Both the position numbers and the translations under genes were made by a program. 64,000 nt of DNA from Aestuariivita sp. (GTDB lineage Bacteria; Pseudomonadota; Alphaproteobacteria; Rhodobacterales; Rhodobacteraceae), in assembly GCA_965215385.1 (NCBI GenBank), contig OZ244059.1:3499004-3563003 (forward strand). Direction: 5' to 3'. The notes under the pieces are model-generated. The model was not told the DNA's origin. It was given only the letters and a program-made list of their open reading frames with translations, and did no database searches. Within the stretch, counting starts at the first letter, position 1. Each line of letters starts with the position of its first letter. This document shows positions 4,691-10,056 of this stretch, piece by piece.

Positions 4691-5092
4691 ATGTCGGTCA
4701 TGCCACACGCAACCGATCTTGCCAAGTCAAAAACGCCACTGGACGGCGACCCGTCACCCGAGCAACGCCTGGTGGCAGCGGGTCACAAGTTTGTCGAGCT
4801 GGCCGAAGACGTTGGTCTATCCGCCGATATCGCGGTTCGCGATCTGATGTTTGGCGTCGCTCGGGCGGTGCTACCGCCGGCGTTTGCGGCTGTTGACGAC
4901 CACGGGCCGTCGCTGACGGTCGCCGGGAAGTCGTATCACCGAGTAGCGGTCACGCGTGGCGAGGCGATGACGATGTTGGGACCGGTCGAGTTTGAGCGGT
5001 CACGTTATCGCCCGTCGGGCAAAGGTGCGGCGATCATTCCGGCCGACAGTACCCGCGGACTGACGACCGGTGGCATGACGCCGCTGGTATGA
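4691..5092 (+). CDS. ISKra4-like transposase, orfA part
   Basis: A 133-aa ORF whose stop overlaps the orfB start (ATGA at 5089..5092). orfB is in the -1 frame. The same arrangement is kept in copy 2. Confidence 0.6.
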   Translation: MSVMPHATDLAKSKTPLDGDPSPEQRLVAAGHKFVELAEDVGLSADIAVRDLMFGVARAVLPPAFAAVDDHGPSLTVAGKSYHRVAVTRGEAMTMLGPVEFERSRYRPSGKGAAIIPADSTRGLTTGGMTPLV

Positions 5093-6117
5093 TACTGGCG
5101 ACGGCCGGACTCTCTCTGTCTCTGATGAGTGGTCTCACGGCGCGTGAAAGCGCCGAAGCGTGGCGCCAGTTCGGCGGTCAGGGCCCTGCTACCGCTTCGC
5201 TGATCCGGCTTTCAGCTGCGGTCGGGAGTGAACTGGCGGCGGGTTCCAATGCGTTGCTCGCAACGGTTGGGGAACGCGCGGCCTTACCGGCGGGAACCGC
5301 GTCGCTGCTGGTCTCACTTGACGGCGTCATGATGCGGATGCCGGCTGCAACGGTCGGTGACATCGACCTTGATGCCGGGTGGCGTGCGGCCGCTGACGGG
5401 GTTGTGGGCTTTGTCGATGCCGCTGGCAACCGGCTGGATGCCGGTTGTTTTGGGCAACGGCCGGCGGCGGGTAAAGAGACTTTGCCGGCGCCGTTAAGCG
5501 CCGAATTATGCCACCGGCTCACGGTTGACCCGAACCTTAAGGTCGTGGCGGTCGCTGATGGGGCACCGGATAATTGGACGTTTCTGGAAGCTTTGTGCCC
5601 CGATCGGGTGCTATTGGATTATTGGCATGCGGCGCCACATCTGAAAGCGGCGGCGGATGCGGCCTTTGGCCAAGCGACGGCGGCAGGAACGGCGTGGTTT
5701 GCGAAATGGCGGCATCCGTTACGCCACGACGCCAACGGCGCGGCCAAGGTCATTGCTGCGTTGCGGTATCTCCTAAGCAACGGAACGGCGGGCACCCAGC
5801 TCCGTCGCGAACTCGGGTGCTTTCGTCACAACCGCCATCGGATGGATGATGCGGCGGCGGCCGCCGGGTATGCCATCGGCTCGGGTGCGGTTGCAGCCGC
5901 CAACAAAGTTTTAGTCACGACGCGGATGAAGCGTTCCGGTCAGAGTTGGCGGCGGGACGGCGGTCAAGGGGTTCTGAGCATCCGCGCCCTAGCCAAGTCT
6001 GGTCGCTTTGATCGGGCTTGGGAAGACTTGGTGCCACGCCGCAATTGCCAAGGTAACTGGGTTCCCAAAGTGCCGGCCAATGATAATCGTGCGATTCGCT
6101 TGGCATTGATCGCATAA
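5089..6117 (+). CDS. ISKra4-like DDE transposase, orfB part
   Basis: The motif block VADGAPDNWTFLE...LLDYWHAAPHL resembles the DGA..W / LD.YH...HL signature of ISKra4-type transposases. Family assignment is by eye only. Confidence 0.55.
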   Translation: MILATAGLSLSLMSGLTARESAEAWRQFGGQGPATASLIRLSAAVGSELAAGSNALLATVGERAALPAGTASLLVSLDGVMMRMPAATVGDIDLDAGWRAAADGVVGFVDAAGNRLDAGCFGQRPAAGKETLPAPLSAELCHRLTVDPNLKVVAVADGAPDNWTFLEALCPDRVLLDYWHAAPHLKAAADAAFGQATAAGTAWFAKWRHPLRHDANGAAKVIAALRYLLSNGTAGTQLRRELGCFRHNRHRMDDAAAAAGYAIGSGAVAAANKVLVTTRMKRSGQSWRRDGGQGVLSIRALAKSGRFDRAWEDLVPRRNCQGNWVPKVPANDNRAIRLALIA

Positions 6118-6193: not shown

Positions 6194-7014
6194 GTGGAGG
6201 AGTCAGGGTGCAATCCAGAACTTTTCAGAGACTGGCTGTCGTCGACAGCGATTAGTTGCACTGGTTTGATCGCAAATTCACGACATACGTCGGAAGTTCT
6301 AGGAAAGTACCTAGAAACCAATAGCATCAACACACAACTAAAGTTAGTACCTTTGGCGCAATCAGGTTTTTGTGACCCTAGTCCGAGGCAATCTGCTAAG
6401 GTTGTAGGTGAACCAAGGCTTGCCCCGAACTCAGATATCAGCAAACTCGTAAATGAATTCAACCAAAAAGATATAGTGCGTACGGCTGCCAAGCTGCCAT
6501 TCGTTTTGTGTGTCGGAACCATTGAAGGGCGAAAGAACTGCTGGAGAATCGCTCAGGCCTGGGCTCAGTTGGCGTTGATACCAAATGTGGAACTGCCACG
6601 GCTGGTATCTGCAGGAAAGTATGGGGGGTTAACTAAAGATTTCCTTAAAGCGTACACCGCGATGGGTGGTTGGGGCGGCTGGGTGCTTATTATTGAGCGA
6701 CCCAGTGATGACGAACTCGATTTCTTGTGCCGCCGTTGCGCCTTTATAATTACGGCCAGTCTCTACGAGGGTGGGGGCTAACAATCGGAGAGAGCCTGAG
6801 CTACGGCAAGACAGCAGTGGTTTCGGATTTGACAGCAATGCTCGATGTCGGAGGAGATCTAGTAGAATATTGCGATCCGTATTCGATCGCTTCAATTGCA
6901 GCTTCGGTTAAGCGGCTCGTGAGAAACCAGAGCGTAAGAAAGAACTCGAAGAACGGATTTCCCGCGCCAAATTATGACAGTGGTCAGATGTGGGGCGCGA
7001 TCTTGCAAGGGTAA
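6194..7014 (+). pseudogene. GT1/GT4-family glycosyltransferase, C-terminal part, frameshifted and 5-prime-truncated by the IS
   Basis: ORF 6194..6781 (...FVLCVGTIEGRKN..., ...ASLYEGGG) and ORF 6727..7014 (EGWGLTIGESLSYGKTAVVSD...) together form a glycos_transf_1 domain split by a frameshift near 6770. The gene body starts directly at the IS right end. Confidence 0.7.
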
Positions 7015-7117
7015 TCAGACACAATACTTGAGGGTCTATGTTTATCCCCAGCACAGCGCAAAAAAGCACCAAATTATGACGAAGATGGTCTGACAAGAAA
7101 GTGATTTCTAATGTAGA

Positions 7118-7573
7118 TCACACACTCTGCAAAAAATCCTCAAGAGGAATTGGTGGCGTTGATATTTTCACCAAAGCAACACGAAGTTGATTGATATATC
7201 CGTTGCTGGTTTTTCCGCTGATATTCTGGATGCCGCAATGGGCAGGATTTTCCTTTGTCATTTTTGACAAAACCTCAAACATTATACAGCCTGCGTCATC
7301 CCGCTGGCTGCTGACCTCACTACAGTTCAACTGCGTAGAATGAGCTAATTCTCTCTTAATAGAAGTACCGTTAGCTCGCCGTGCTTGTTTAGCTGCTATC
7401 TTTCGTTCAACGGCAGTATCAATCATATCAAGGCGCGAGACGCTTATGTACGACCTACCTCCCTTTAAATCTTCTTTGCGAAATGCTGATGTATTCAATT
7501 GATTCCCGCAAAAATCATCTGGATGCCAAACCAAACGATGCAGATTGATGTTTTTTCTCAAAGGTTTTGACAC
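7118..7573 (-). CDS. Hypothetical protein (151 aa), downstream partner of the coupled pair
   Basis: The GTG start lies 1 nt after the TAG stop of the upstream ORF. The region is AT-rich. No recognisable motif. Confidence 0.55.
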   Translation of the reverse strand: MSKPLRKNINLHRLVWHPDDFCGNQLNTSAFRKEDLKGGRSYISVSRLDMIDTAVERKIAAKQARRANGTSIKRELAHSTQLNCSEVSSQRDDAGCIMFEVLSKMTKENPAHCGIQNISGKTSNGYINQLRVALVKISTPPIPLEDFLQSV

Positions 7574-7574
7574 G

Positions 7575-8069
7575 CTAACTTCTGAGTAACTTCAATAAGC
7601 GTGGGTTGAAAGGCTGATCAACAAAATTTTCGTCGGCACTCGCTGAATCTCCATTTTCGATTGATATAAAGAACGAATAGGTTCCGTCATTGTAGACGGT
7701 TAGGTCAGCACTCACCGAATTATCGAACCAAGAAAAGGAAAAAGTGCCCTCGAAATCCAAACCAACCATTGGTTTTCGTGCAATTTTTGCTGCTGCTATC
7801 TTTGTAAGCATTGCCTGAGCGTAGCGTACTGCATCGGCGTCCGGCGCAAGGCTTCCCGGTCCCTTCCATCCGTCTTGTCGGTTGCCGAGTTCCTCAATTT
7901 TGTTTTTTAAATCTATGTACCAACCGGAGGGTTTTTCGTCATCGCCTCGAATTAACTCATCAAGTTCATCAAAACCAATTAAGGTTGATAATTTCCCTTT
8001 TTTTATTTCGGGGTCAAAAGAAAGTGTCATTGTGCAGGTTGGGATCGTATTATTTGAGGTTGCTTCCAT
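7575..8069 (-). CDS. Hypothetical acidic protein (164 aa)
   Basis: Complete ORF in the AT-rich cassette. It is acidic and has no signal peptide. Family not recognised. Confidence 0.55.
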   Translation of the reverse strand: MEATSNNTIPTCTMTLSFDPEIKKGKLSTLIGFDELDELIRGDDEKPSGWYIDLKNKIEELGNRQDGWKGPGSLAPDADAVRYAQAMLTKIAAAKIARKPMVGLDFEGTFSFSWFDNSVSADLTVYNDGTYSFFISIENGDSASADENFVDQPFNPRLLKLLRS

Positions 8070-8295
8070 AACTTTCTCCTGAGTAAATTATTCAAGGGGG
8101 TGAGTCACTTTTTGATAGCTTAGCAAGTTCCACGCATTGCGGAACCCGAGAATATTAAGCTTTTTGTTGTTTTTGCTGATTTATCAGTCCGATGAGAGAA
8201 TAGCCCTCAACCAGAGATCCGAAAAACCAATCCATTGGGTGTTTCACAAGCTTTTGGAGCAGCACTAACTAAACAAATTGTCATACACCCAGCAT

Positions 8296-9135
8296 TCAAG
8301 AGAAATATCGAATCCCAAGGTTGTCAAGATACCGACAGATAGTGGACGCATCAATCGCCTCGCCAACATGAAAATCAGTAGATGATCTTGTATTGAAGCC
8401 CAATGGGTAACGCTGCGTTCGAGACTGCATTCCACATATTTTTCCATCAACATCAAATAAGGGCCCACCGCTTTGACCTCGTAAACCAGGTGAATCTAGT
8501 TCGATAAATCTTGCGCAAGATCCATCGTTCATAATTTCTTTTCGGATGCGACCTACAAGCCCACTATTCACAAATAAAGTTGGATGCATATTTAGAACAA
8601 ACTCATTATCTCTTATTTCTGTCGCGAGCAAAGCCTCCAGAAGAGGATAACCAGTACGACATAACATTTCGCCAGCTTTCACCTCAGTCTCACGGAATAT
8701 AGGAGGAGTATAGTCATCAGGAATTATTAAATTCGTAATTTTGTATGATGCAATATCCACATATTTGGAAAGATTAAACGACTCAACGTTGGCTTTTGGT
8801 TGTCCCCATGCGACAGCAGCTCCTTTTATGGTGCCTCTATTTCTTAGCATATGAACTGGACGATTTCCCTTTTTTCTTTTGATGTTACGTTTTGTTCTCG
8901 ATTTTTCTAATTCGTAGGATGTAGCATTCTTCAAAATATCAAACATTCCTTCAACGACGTGTTTGCACGTCAAAACCCAGCCGTCCCGATTAATAAGTAT
9001 CCCCGCACTAATTACATTCTTGATTTCGGATACTTTCTTCCCTTTTTGAGGGTAAGTTTCAAAAGCCCCAGCAATACAAATTACTTGGCTAGAAGTTTTT
9101 TCAGTTGCCTCAGAAAACATGAAAATTCTTTCCAT
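8296..9135 (-). CDS. Trypsin-like (S1/chymotrypsin fold) serine protease without signal peptide
   Basis: The triad contexts are present: VLTCKHVV (His), YVDIASYK (Asp) and LRGQSGGPLFD (Ser). The N-terminus MERIFMFSEATEK... has no hydrophobic leader. Confidence 0.75.
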   Translation of the reverse strand: MERIFMFSEATEKTSSQVICIAGAFETYPQKGKKVSEIKNVISAGILINRDGWVLTCKHVVEGMFDILKNATSYELEKSRTKRNIKRKKGNRPVHMLRNRGTIKGAAVAWGQPKANVESFNLSKYVDIASYKITNLIIPDDYTPPIFRETEVKAGEMLCRTGYPLLEALLATEIRDNEFVLNMHPTLFVNSGLVGRIRKEIMNDGSCARFIELDSPGLRGQSGGPLFDVDGKICGMQSRTQRYPLGFNTRSSTDFHVGEAIDASTICRYLDNLGIRYFS

Positions 9136-9450
9136 ATTTTTGGTTTGTTTAATGAAAACTGTCGGAGTGATGCGGACATAAATTCGCTTTATTATTGAGC
9201 GATTTTTCGGAATTCGATGTGACAGGTGAACTCGCTAATAGTCACAATTTAGGAGTTCCATTACTTTCCATAGAACTTTCGTTGCTCCAGATGTGATTCA
9301 GAGGAAACATCCATTTTGCTGAGTTGTATATTTCGGTCACTATCAAATCGCAGAAGTTAGCGAAGCAAATATATTTACCTCGCCTAAATAGCACGGTTGA
9401 CAGACTAATGGAGCACAAGGCAAGAGCATTCAGATACGCGTTTATTGAAG

Positions 9451-10056
9451 CCCGCTTTCAACACTGAGGTGCAACAATAGGCATTTTTGCACCCGCCTTT
9501 AGTGTTCTTCTGAACTGGTGAGCAGCCGCCGGGGTTATCAAGAATGGTTCGCTGTGTTGTCAGTGGTCAACAGCGGTCGCAATCTCTAACTGGGACTTTA
9601 GATCAGTCTAAGGTCAAGCGCAAGTAAAGTGCAATCCGATCTTTGCACCGGCACCTTGGCTGATCATGTCGACGGCTCGTCGTTACGCGATTGAACACTT
9701 TCGATAATGCGAGGGTTGAAGGCGGCGGCAGCCGCCTTTCCGTCTTGATCTGTCGGGCACCGATCGGCGCACTGCTGCTATTACGATACGAAGCAGCGGC
9801 AGATACCCCGATGCCGACTGGAACCGGGAATAGGCCAGGCTTGTTCGCGGCGGCCGGCGGACCCATACCCTTTCGACACTCCGCAGGTGCCCGCGTCCCT
9901 TCTTTCCGGCCATCAGGAACCGGGATTACCCAATTGTGCCCCGTGTTCTGACGCCAACCCGTGACGGATTGGCAGACAGAGAAACGATGTTTTTCCCAGT
10001 AGCCGATGATCAAGTCGATCATTATGCGGTCGCCATTTTGCGACGAGTATGAGCGT
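9451..10056 (-). repeat. IS30-linked conserved non-coding module, copy A
   Basis: It begins right after the IS30 transposase stop and ends at ...GTTGAAAGCGGG. It is homologous to 49769..50374 and 53549..54168. The ORFs predicted in it fall in different frames in each copy. Confidence 0.75.

What the first reader, a model, noticed from the sequence alone, without database searches (positions are those of the whole stretch)
7118..9135. AT-rich three-gene cassette: a signal-less trypsin-like protease followed by a translationally coupled pair of unknown proteins
Seen: the three minus-strand genes are visibly more AT-rich than their surroundings. They lie between a glycosyltransferase remnant and IS debris.
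- The first gene (8296..9135) has His (VLTCKHVV), Asp (VDIASYK) and Ser (GQSGGPLFD) contexts but no secretion signal.
- After a 226-bp gap come a 164-aa acidic protein and a 151-aa protein, whose GTG start lies 1 nt after the upstream TAG.

Established knowledge: cytoplasmic trypsin-like protease domains have been reported as components of several anti-phage systems, for example some retron effector modules and some STAND-NTPase (Avs) proteins. Small tightly coupled gene pairs are typical of toxin-antitoxin or abortive-infection modules.

Inference: this may be a horizontally acquired defence or addiction cassette. I recognise neither small protein, so it may be undescribed or simply unfamiliar to me.
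Basis: partly seen in the sequence, partly recalled or inferred. Interest (0 to 1): 0.6.

Follow-up and report, generated by a model that had tools for sequence, protein, structure and literature searches.

The report
Protease-led variant of three-gene conflict cassette
The three AT-rich genes are real and foreign: the last two belong to a rare, unstudied gene pair that always travels with a swappable first gene, here a serine protease, and is probably a toxin-antitoxin-like or anti-phage module, though nothing has been tested.

Summary
All three minus-strand genes exist as described. Their GC is 40-43% against 52% for the window.

- **Gene A** (8296-9135) is an intact Trypsin_2 serine protease without a signal peptide. 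His59, Asp127 and Ser222 are invariant in 16 homologues.
- **Genes B and C** (7575-8069, 7118-7573) have no Pfam or PDB relative. They are adjacent, in this order, in all 30 distinct loci I could examine.
- **The gene upstream of B varies.** It is a TIGR04255 protein in 15 loci, an ~85-aa protein in 5, an FN3-tailed protein in 2 and an AAA_21 ATPase in 1. It is a protease only in this lineage.
- **Closest known system.** B's core resembles the C-terminal domain of PADLOC PDC-M32A. C shares colinear motifs (Arg, Ser, His, Arg) with PDC-M32B. PDC-M32 is an untested candidate defence pair that sits inside Type I restriction operons.
- **Link between A and B.** B's first ~48 residues resemble the small acidic ORFs that follow homologues of this protease. 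B therefore looks like a fusion that ties the protease to the pair.
- **Relatives.** In Aestuariivita-like contigs the protease stops 14 bp before B, and there A and C are broken while B is intact.

My best reading is a mobile conflict cassette in which B neutralises the effector C and the protease acts on B. Function is untested.

The parts
8296..9135 (-). Gene A: cytoplasmic trypsin-like (Trypsin_2, S1-type) serine protease, 279 aa, with the probable true start at Met6. The catalytic residues are His59, Asp127 and Ser222. A basic helix insert lies between the His and the Asp.
   Evidence: Pfam PF13365 scores 8e-13, 49.7 bits against a cut-off of 27.6. The triad is invariant in 16 homologues. 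The HtrA/DegP NCBIfam models score far below their cut-offs. The gene is 86% identical in nucleotides to L012-14, where it is broken by a ~50-bp deletion.
8070..8295 (-). Spacer between A and B (226 bp). About 204 bp of it (approximately 8097..8290) is absent from the closest relatives, where the protease stop lies 14 bp before B's ATG. The Shine-Dalgarno sequence AGGAGA sits just upstream of B.
   Evidence: Alignment of the window with L012. The segment is single-copy in the genome. Promoter and terminator matches do not exceed chance. No Rfam family matches.
7926..8069 (-). B residues 1-48: an acidic N-terminal peptide predicted to be disordered. It resembles the ~50-60-aa ORFs that follow homologues of this protease, so it is the putative protease-docking or bait segment.
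   Evidence: AlphaFold2 pLDDT is below 50 for residues 1-32. An HMM built from the small ORFs of L015, L016 and L068 hits this segment at 13.8 bits. That exceeds all 2000 shuffles (best 8.9). It ranks first of 10,597 six-frame segments, with the next at 6.3 bits.
7575..7925 (-). B residues 49-164 plus the stop codon: the conserved alpha/beta core (motifs DGWKG, GLDFEGTFSFSW, VYNDGTYSFF). It is the putative C-binding or neutralising domain and is distantly related to the C-terminal domain of PADLOC PDC-M32A.
   Evidence: B homologues match at 31-62% identity. AlphaFold2 pLDDT exceeds 90 for residues 50-164. Foldseek found no convincing PDB match. PDC-M32A matches at E 1.3e-4 over profile positions 256-351 of 375. 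hhalign gives E 3e-4 and probability 40%. Bridging sequences L053 and L054 hit both profiles.
7118..7573 (-). Gene C: 151 aa, GTG start one base after B's TAG. It is an enzyme-like small protein whose fold is unmatched in the PDB. Arg13, Ser44, Arg74, His112 and Arg131 are conserved. It is the putative effector or toxin and a distant relative of PDC-M32B.
   Evidence: The family has 249 clusters at 50% identity, all stand-alone proteins of 100-210 aa. There is no Pfam hit and no PDB sequence hit. The AlphaFold2 model has pLDDT 97 and pTM 0.90. Foldseek against the PDB gave nothing below E 0.9. BFVD gave one unnamed 149-aa viral protein at E 2e-3. Conservation figures are. hhalign against PDC-M32B gives probability 78% and E 1.9e-5.
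6194..7014 (+). Flank, not part of the cassette: a frameshifted remnant of a group-1 glycosyltransferase gene, truncated by a GC-rich insertion. The gene is intact (488 aa) in the relatives.
   Evidence: Pfam Glycos_transf_1 fragments. L012 7527-8993 is an intact 488-aa gene.

Best explanation
The three genes are one horizontally acquired conflict-type cassette, of the toxin-antitoxin-like or anti-phage kind.

Shown:
- B and C form a strictly conserved, translationally coupled pair.
- This pair always sits behind a tightly coupled but exchangeable first gene. That gene is most often a TIGR04255 protein. Here it is a cytoplasmic serine protease with an intact catalytic triad.
- B consists of a variable N-terminal segment, which changes with the type of first gene, and a conserved non-enzymatic core.
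- In this lineage B's N-terminal segment resembles the small acidic ORF that normally follows this kind of protease.

Inferred:
- B's core binds and neutralises C.
- C is an enzyme-like effector with conserved Arg, Ser, His and Arg residues, which suggests a substrate bearing phosphate, such as RNA or a nucleotide.
- The first-gene product is the input that acts on B through B's N-terminal adaptor.
- In this variant the protease docks on or cleaves B's N-terminal peptide. That would set C free, or conversely keep the protease in check, after a trigger such as phage infection. The result would be growth arrest.
For: - **B-C pairing.** B lies directly upstream of C on the same strand in all 30 distinct loci. 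These include remote family members with E values of 1e-8 to 1e-34.
- **Exchangeable first gene.** The upstream gene overlaps or abuts B everywhere. By type it is TIGR04255 in 15 loci, an ~85-aa ORF in 5, an FN3-tailed protein in 2, an AAA_21 ATPase in 1, and a protease in the window lineage.
- **Co-variation.** B's N-terminal region changes with the type of upstream gene. In L017 the small first ORF is fused in frame to B.
- **Link between protease and B.**
  - The gap is 14 bp in L012-14.
  - All three genes share low GC.
  - Protease homologues L015, L016 and L068 each carry a ~50-60-aa acidic ORF 27-40 bp downstream.
  - An HMM of those small ORFs finds B's N-terminus as the top hit of 10,597 segments and above all 2000 shuffles.
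- **Conflict context.**
  - Homologous cassettes sit in prophage cargo positions (L002, L003), on an IMG/VR viral contig (L025), and next to DarT-NADAR, Gp49-HTH and IS elements.
  - The related PDC-M32 pair lies between hsdM and hsdS.
  - PDC systems were nominated by 'guilt-by-embedding' inside known defence systems (bioRxiv 10.1101/2024.01.29.577857).
- **Decay pattern.** In L012/G001 and in L024, C is broken while B stays open. In L012 the protease is broken too. This is what is expected if B is the neutraliser.
- **Residue conservation.** C is enzyme-like: Ser44 and His112 are 99% conserved, and Arg74 and Arg131 more than 90%. B's invariant residues are structural ones (Gly, Trp, Pro, Tyr, Phe).
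Against: - No function of any of the three families has been tested anywhere. I found no paper on TIGR04255, and PDC-M32 is listed only as an untested candidate.
- The protease-B-C combination is seen in one lineage only, and in the sister species it is decaying.
- The window has a 226-bp gap between A and B.
- Protease homologues at 47-51% identity have no B or C nearby.
- The similarity between B's N-terminus and the protease-partner ORFs is weak (13.8 bits, three seed sequences). BLASTP does not see it.
- The links to PDC-M32 are remote. HMMER with the PDC-M32B models finds nothing in C. hhalign gives 78% probability for C and 40% for B.
- The acidic-B, basic-C pattern does not hold for the whole C family, whose median pI is 5.7.
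- The locus sits in a polysaccharide-type gene neighbourhood (ManC, glycosyltransferases), not in a classic defence island.
- Which partner is toxic is inferred only.
Confidence: 0.5

Rival explanations
1. Two separate modules that merely lie next to each other. B-C is an autonomous two-gene toxin-antitoxin-like module. The protease, with its own small partner, is an unrelated neighbouring module of the same island. The apparent fusion of the partner peptide to B is a by-product of a deletion and has no functional meaning.
For: - Protease homologues elsewhere lack B and C.
- The trio occurs in one lineage only.
- The window has a 226-bp gap.
- The N-terminal similarity is weak.
Against: - B-C never occurs without a tightly coupled upstream gene wherever the contig allows a look. 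The protease fills that slot here.
- The spacing is 14 bp in relatives.
- B's N-terminus is the single best match to the protease-partner HMM among 10,597 segments, and it sits exactly where that partner is expected.
Confidence: 0.25
2. The cassette serves a mobile element or phage rather than defending the host. It could act in superinfection exclusion, as an anti-defence function, or as a pure addiction module that stabilises the island.
For: - Homologous cassettes lie in prophage cargo positions and on a viral contig.
- Foldseek finds one look-alike of C among viral proteins.
- Distant homologues of the protease are on IMG/VR contigs.
Against: - Most loci are chromosomal islets without phage genes.
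- C and the protease have no match in 50,697 phage records or 72,556 plasmid records.
- The related PDC-M32 pair is embedded in host restriction operons.
Confidence: 0.1
3. A decaying relic. The cassette is intact by chance in this genome but no longer works, as in the sister species.
For: - A and C are pseudogenes in L012-14 and G001.
- The neighbourhood is full of IS debris and broken genes.
- A 204-bp extra segment separates A from B.
Against: - All three frames are open, with the catalytic triad and all conserved residues intact.
- dN/dS against L012 is 0.21-0.47, which indicates purifying selection over most of the divergence.
Confidence: 0.1
4. A housekeeping or envelope role linked to the surrounding polysaccharide genes, for example processing of an exported protein.
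For: - The locus lies between ManC and glycosyltransferase genes in relatives.
- B proteins of the TIGR04255 and small-ORF types carry a moderately hydrophobic N-terminal segment.
Against: - The distribution is sporadic.
- Homologous cassettes sit in unrelated neighbourhoods, including prophages.
- The window's A and B have no signal peptide or hydrophobic segment.
- GC is lower than in the neighbouring genes.
Confidence: 0.05

Closest known systems
PADLOC 'phage defence candidate' PDC-M32 (genes A and B). It is one of 145 untested candidates from guilt-by-embedding (Payne et al., bioRxiv 10.1101/2024.01.29.577857).
   Same: - It is a two-gene, overlapping pair in the same order.
- The upstream protein ends in a domain like B's core (motif DGW.DG..AP...P.P..YP..EGG.Q.EW).
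- The downstream protein is a ~125-aa protein with motifs colinear with C: LLRQIHPxF, SQAFRPTPKD..LSVY, PEHxxIDFS and RLR.
- The N-terminal part of the upstream protein is variable (M32A-N domain, TPR repeats, or none).
   Different: - The PDC-M32A and PDC-M32B models do not recognise the window proteins at family level. B matches only at E 1e-4 over 95 residues, and C has no HMMER hit.
- PDC-M32 has no separate first gene and no protease.
- It sits between hsdM and hsdS, which this locus does not.
- C is longer, with an extra strand region that carries Arg74.
TIGR04255-led three-gene cassettes (TIGR04255 protein + B + C). I found no paper describing them. This scan has met them repeatedly in other genomes.
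   Same: - B and C are clear homologues (31-64% identity).
- The order and the translational coupling are the same.
- The distribution is sporadic and mobile in the same way.
   Different: - The first gene is a trypsin-like protease, not a TIGR04255 protein. The genome has no TIGR04255 gene, though the control search was also silent.
- B's N-terminal segment is an acidic protease-partner-like peptide instead of a hydrophobic stretch.
Type II and three-part toxin-antitoxin systems, for example toxin-antitoxin-chaperone (TAC) systems and Lon- or Clp-controlled type II pairs (established knowledge).
   Same: - The genes are small, overlapping and mobile, with the acidic putative neutraliser encoded before the putative toxin.
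- The neutraliser has a disordered, protease-accessible segment.
- In decaying copies the putative toxin is lost first.
   Different: - No component belongs to a known toxin, antitoxin or SecB family.
- A dedicated protease encoded in the operon would replace the housekeeping proteases.
- Toxicity has not been shown.
Protease-bearing immune modules: the retron type XI RT-protease, protease-type Avs proteins, and trypsin with Trypco/Pepco small partners (Kaur et al., eLife 2020, recalled from memory; earlier notes).
   Same: A cytoplasmic trypsin-fold protease is paired with a small partner protein in a mobile context. The PADLOC RT-Protease_XI model hits the protease domain at E 8e-6.
   Different: - There is no reverse transcriptase, no ncRNA and no STAND NTPase.
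- The small partners have no Trypco or other Pfam domain.

Membership tests
Pfam Trypsin_2 (PF13365) / S1-type serine peptidase | Domain score above the gathering threshold | tested here: met
   49.7 bits against a cut-off of 27.6, E 8e-13.
Pfam Trypsin_2 (PF13365) / S1-type serine peptidase | Catalytic His-Asp-Ser triad present | tested here: met
   His59, Asp127 and Ser222 are invariant in 16 aligned homologues.
HtrA/DegP/DegS family | Score above the NCBIfam cut-offs, PDZ domain(s), export signal | tested here: not met
   The best score is 35.9 bits against a cut-off of 416. No PDZ domain is present. The N-terminus is not hydrophobic (by inspection).
PADLOC PDC-M32 | Gene A protein matches the PDC-M32A model over its full length (~375 aa) | tested here: not met
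   B matches only profile positions 256-351, at E 1.3e-4. hhalign of B against the M32A alignment gives E 3e-4 and probability 40%.
PADLOC PDC-M32 | Gene B protein matches a PDC-M32B model | tested here: inconclusive
   HMMER gives no hit at E <= 1. hhalign gives probability 78% and E 1.9e-5 over the N-terminal 63 columns. Motifs are colinear over the full length. Bridging pairs are L055, L057 and L058.
PADLOC PDC-M32 | Embedded in a Type I R-M, BREX or DISARM operon | tested here: not met
   The flanks are a glycosyltransferase remnant and IS debris. The window's Type I R-M operon lies about 26 kb away.
TIGR04255-led B-C three-gene cassette (undescribed family) | B homologue directly followed by a C homologue, translationally coupled | tested here: met
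   Found in 30 of 30 distinct loci including the window. The window has a 1-nt spacing.
TIGR04255-led B-C three-gene cassette (undescribed family) | First gene is a TIGR04255-family protein | tested here: not met
   The first gene is a Trypsin_2 protease with no similarity to TIGR04255 proteins. The genome search for TIGR04255 was negative, but the control genomes were silent too.
Type II toxin-antitoxin system | One product is toxic and is neutralised by direct binding of the other | not testable with these tools
   This needs expression and rescue assays. The indirect hints are the decay pattern and the nature of the conserved residues.
Type II toxin-antitoxin system | Membership of a known toxin or antitoxin family | tested here: not met
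   No Pfam, NCBIfam, PHROG or PDB match for B or C.
Retron type XI (RT-protease) | Reverse transcriptase domain and retron ncRNA | tested here: not met
   Only the protease part of the model matches. No Rfam family matches in 6500-10000. No RT ORF is nearby.
Trypsin with Trypco/Pepco partner modules | Small partner carries a Trypco domain | tested here: not met
   The small partner ORFs and B's N-terminus have no Pfam hit at E <= 1.

The most novel reading that the evidence does not exclude
A protease-gated three-component immune or toxin-antitoxin system. A dedicated cytoplasmic serine protease recognises a bait peptide fused to the neutraliser B and cleaves it. That releases C, an effector whose fold has no match in the PDB and which carries an Arg-Ser-His-Arg site. 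More generally, the first-gene slot of the B-C cassette superfamily (TIGR04255 protein, ~85-aa protein, FN3-tailed protein, AAA_21 ATPase, protease) would be an exchangeable input module. Each input would be wired to the same neutraliser-effector core through B's variable N-terminus.
Probability: 0.2. Interest if true: 0.75.

Novelty: new variant of a known kind. Interest (0 to 1): 0.5.

Why it matters
None of the three protein families has a studied member.

- C gives a very confident structure model that matches no solved structure, and it has an enzyme-like set of invariant residues.
- The B-C pair, with its exchangeable first gene, looks like a modular conflict system spread thinly over many bacteria and some prophages.
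- This locus adds an informative variant. A recognisable enzyme, a protease, replaces the enigmatic TIGR04255 protein, and the protease's usual small partner appears fused to B.
- That gives a concrete, testable wiring (protease acts on B, B controls C). It could reveal how the whole cassette family works, including the untested PADLOC candidate PDC-M32.

If the cassette proves inert, the finding reduces to a rare foreign gene islet.

Tried and rejected
- **Family libraries.** Pfam, NCBIfam, PHROGs and PADLOC scans of B and C gave nothing except B's weak hit to PDC-M32A. A Pfam scan of 120 C-family members gave nothing.
- **Solved structures by sequence.** Profile searches of the PDB for B, C and TIGR04255 proteins gave nothing.
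- **Solved and predicted structures by fold.**
  - For B against the PDB there were only low-TM hits: sucrose phosphorylase, the T4 MotA DNA-binding domain and the TriTu immunity protein. I rejected these as uninformative.
  - For C against the PDB the best E was 0.9. The RES toxin MbcT ranked 19th with TM 0.25, which is too weak to use.
  - For C against BFVD there was one unnamed viral protein.
- **Retron idea.** Rejected: no Rfam hit and no reverse transcriptase.
- **Repeat element in the spacer.** Rejected: the 204-bp extra segment is single-copy in the genome.
- **Remnant of the ~85-aa first gene in the A-B gap.** tblastn found none.
- **Promoters and terminators.** The scan did not exceed chance.
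- **Annotated phages and plasmids.** tblastn of C and of the protease found no match.
- **Literature.** 'TIGR04255' returned 0 papers. 'PDC-M32' returned one descriptive mention.
- **Pairwise BLASTP of B against the small protease-partner ORFs.** No alignment. The similarity shows only with an HMM.
Full report
**1.

The ORF list and the sequence show three minus-strand ORFs:
- A at 8296..9135 (279 aa);
- B at 7575..8069 (164 aa), with the Shine-Dalgarno sequence AGGAGA before its ATG;
- C at 7118..7573 (151 aa), whose GTG start lies one base after B's TAG.

The gap between A and B is 226 bp. GC is 0.38-0.43 across the cassette, against 0.49-0.65 in the flanks and 0.52 for the window. The flanks are two fragments of a group-1 glycosyltransferase gene (6194..7014) on one side and IS remains (rve and ISL3 fragments) on the other.

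**2. Gene A**

A is a Trypsin_2 protease (49.7 bits against a cut-off of 27.6). His59, Asp127 and Ser222 are invariant in 16 homologues, and the family starts at Met6. It is not an HtrA/DegP protein. The PADLOC hit to the retron type XI RT-protease is plain domain similarity, and no Rfam family matches nearby. The family is large, with 1,702 hits. This subfamily is rare: it occurs in 1 of 401 genomes of the phylum and has no match among plasmid records.

**3. Genes B and C are a conserved pair**

Neither has a Pfam, NCBIfam or PHROG match.
- **Family size.** Homologues are few in the word-indexed search: 15 clusters for C and 11 for B. A profile search of 1.84 billion representatives finds 249 C-family clusters, all stand-alone proteins of 100-210 aa.
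- **Adjacency.** I examined loci fetched by exact look-up, by pattern scans of genomes, metagenomes and viral contigs, and by whole-genome searches. B lies directly upstream of C in all 30 distinct loci, including remote members.
- **Distribution.** The C family is sporadic. It occurs in 2 of 61 relatives, one of them as a pseudogene, and in 6 of 401 genomes of the phylum. Named hosts include Paracoccaceae MAGs, Algirhabdus, Dinoroseobacter, Cypionkella and a gammaproteobacterial MAG.

**4. The first gene is exchangeable**

| Gene upstream of B | Distinct loci | Evidence |
|---|---|---|
| TIGR04255-family protein | 15 |; local HMM, |
| ~85-aa beta-rich protein | 5 | |
| ~340-aa protein with an FN3-like tail | 2 | |
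| AAA_21 ATPase | 1 | |
| Trypsin-like protease | window lineage only | |

In every case the upstream gene overlaps or abuts B. B's N-terminal 35-120 residues change with the type of first gene. They hold a moderately hydrophobic stretch in the TIGR04255 and small-ORF types, and none in the FN3, AAA_21 and protease types. In L017 the small first ORF is fused in frame to B. B therefore looks like an adaptor: a variable N-terminus facing the first component and a conserved core facing C.

**5. Is the protease part of the cassette?**

*For:*
- The closest relatives are metagenome contigs L012-14, 86-90% identical in nucleotides. One carries a B protein that a source names as from an Aestuariivita sp. 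MAG. They have the same order, and there the protease stop lies only 14 bp before B's ATG. The window has about 204 extra bp in that spacer, and that segment is single-copy in the genome.
- Protease homologues at 47-51% identity (L015, L016, L068) have no B or C. Each is followed 27-40 bp downstream by an acidic ORF of ~50-60 aa.
- An HMM of those three small ORFs hits the first ~48 residues of the window's B at 13.8 bits. That is above all 2000 shuffles of the segment (best 8.9). It ranks first among 10,597 six-frame segments of the window and about 55 other loci, with the next at 6.3 bits.
- AlphaFold2 predicts that segment to be disordered.
- Together these suggest that B here is a fusion of the protease's usual partner peptide with the B core.

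*Against:*
- The similarity is weak and rests on three seed sequences. BLASTP misses it.
- The trio exists in one lineage only.

I put the functional link at about 60%.

**6. Relation to known systems**

- **B and PDC-M32A.** B's core weakly matches the C-terminal domain of PADLOC PDC-M32A (E 1.3e-4; hhalign E 3e-4 and probability 40%).
- **What PDC-M32 looks like.** Searching genomes with the PDC-M32A model gave full-length genes. Each is followed by an overlapping ~125-aa gene that is PDC-M32B (E down to 1e-56). In two loci the pair sits between hsdM and hsdS. There are also shorter proteins that carry only the B-like domain.
- **C and PDC-M32B.** The two share colinear motifs and the same conserved Arg, Ser, His and Arg. 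hhalign gives probability 78% and E 1.9e-5 for the N-terminal half. Bridging pairs L053-L058 hit profiles of both sides.
- **Status of PDC-M32.** It is one of 145 untested candidates proposed by 'guilt-by-embedding' (bioRxiv 10.1101/2024.01.29.577857). Its only other mention is descriptive (PMC12429752). No paper in the library mentions TIGR04255.
- **Earlier notes of this scan.** About 30 earlier notes report TIGR04255-led three-gene cassettes and reach the same nearest relative. I treated them as leads and re-derived the association independently.

**7. Structures**

- **C** gives a very confident model (pLDDT 97, pTM 0.90, 120-sequence alignment). Foldseek finds no PDB match better than E 0.9 and only one unnamed viral look-alike in BFVD.
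- **B's core** is confident (pLDDT above 90 for residues 50-164) and consists of helices followed by a five-stranded sheet. It has no convincing PDB match.
- **Conserved residues.** In C, Ser44 and His112 are 99% conserved, and Arg74 and Arg131 more than 90%. Arg13, Asp35, Gln63 and Arg47 are at 80-87%. This is an enzyme-like pattern that suggests a phosphate-bearing substrate (inference). B's invariant residues are structural.

**8. How it most likely works**

*Shown:* the architecture, the coupling, the exchangeable first gene, the co-varying N-terminus of B, and the mobile or conflict contexts. Those contexts are prophage cargo sites in L002 and L003, the viral contig L025, neighbours such as DarT-NADAR and Gp49-HTH, and PDC-M32 inside Type I R-M operons.

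*Inferred:*
- B neutralises C.
- The first-gene product is the input that acts on B.
- Here the protease docks on or cleaves B's N-terminal peptide to control C.
- The decay pattern fits B as the neutraliser. In L012/G001 the protease and C are broken while B is intact, and in L024 C is fragmented while B is open.
- dN/dS against L012 is 0.21-0.47, so the genes were under purifying selection for most of their divergence.

*Confidence by level:*

| Claim | Confidence |
|---|---|
| The window pair is a member of the B-C family | ~0.9 |
| The cassette has a conflict-type function | ~0.55 |
| The protease is functionally linked to B-C | ~0.6 |
| The specific cleavage-release mechanism | ~0.2 |

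**9. Limits**

No experiment exists for any component. 

**10. Verdict**

This is a real, foreign three-gene cassette. It is a new, protease-led variant of an undescribed B-C cassette family that is distantly related to the untested candidate PDC-M32. Interest is moderate. The family has already turned up repeatedly in this scan, but this variant offers the most testable wiring so far.

Noticed in passing
L015 6001-6994; L016 6001-7062; L068 5001-5925; also L069-L072: Stand-alone trypsin-like proteases without a signal peptide, from a family of about 1,700 members, are followed 27-60 bp downstream by a small ORF of ~50-90 aa. In the three close homologues that ORF is acidic. None of these small ORFs has a Pfam match. 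This may be an undescribed two-gene protease-partner module, and distant members lie on IMG/VR viral contigs.
   Followed up: partly
L017 401-1078: In a gammaproteobacterial MAG the ~85-aa first ORF is joined in frame to B, giving a 225-aa ORF. This is either a natural fusion or an assembly error. If real, it is a second fusion that links the first-gene product to B.
   Followed up: no
window 8097-8290: About 204 bp in the spacer between A and B are absent from the closest relatives (L012-14). The segment is single-copy in this genome. Its origin (an insertion here or a deletion there) and any promoter role are unknown.
   Followed up: partly
L012 5673-7438 (the same in L013, L014 and G001 contig C91): In the sister species the protease has a ~50-bp deletion, and C has an in-frame TGA plus a 1-bp deletion. 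B stays intact at 91% identity. The putative neutraliser outlives its partners.
   Followed up: yes
window 4691-6117: Two overlapping plus-strand ORFs (133 and 342 aa) lie in a block of 63-66% GC. They have no Pfam match and sit between the aldehyde dehydrogenase gene and the truncated glycosyltransferase gene. This is probably an inserted element of unknown kind that cut the glycosyltransferase gene.
   Followed up: no
L043/L065 and L044/L066: Full-length PDC-M32A and PDC-M32B pairs sit between the hsdM and hsdS genes of Type I restriction operons. In L050 the M32A N-terminal domain is replaced by TPR-like repeats. In L048, L049 and L064 it is absent.
   Followed up: partly
L019 4330-5358; L020 3681-5357: In two Paracoccaceae MAGs the first gene of the cassette is a ~340-aa protein ending in an FN3-like domain. 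L024 is a second, degraded copy of the cassette in the same genome as L020.
   Followed up: partly
L011 10024-10732: A DarT-like gene and a NADAR gene (a DarTG-type toxin-antitoxin pair) lie 1.5 kb from a small-ORF-type B-C cassette. A serine recombinase gene is next to them.
   Followed up: no
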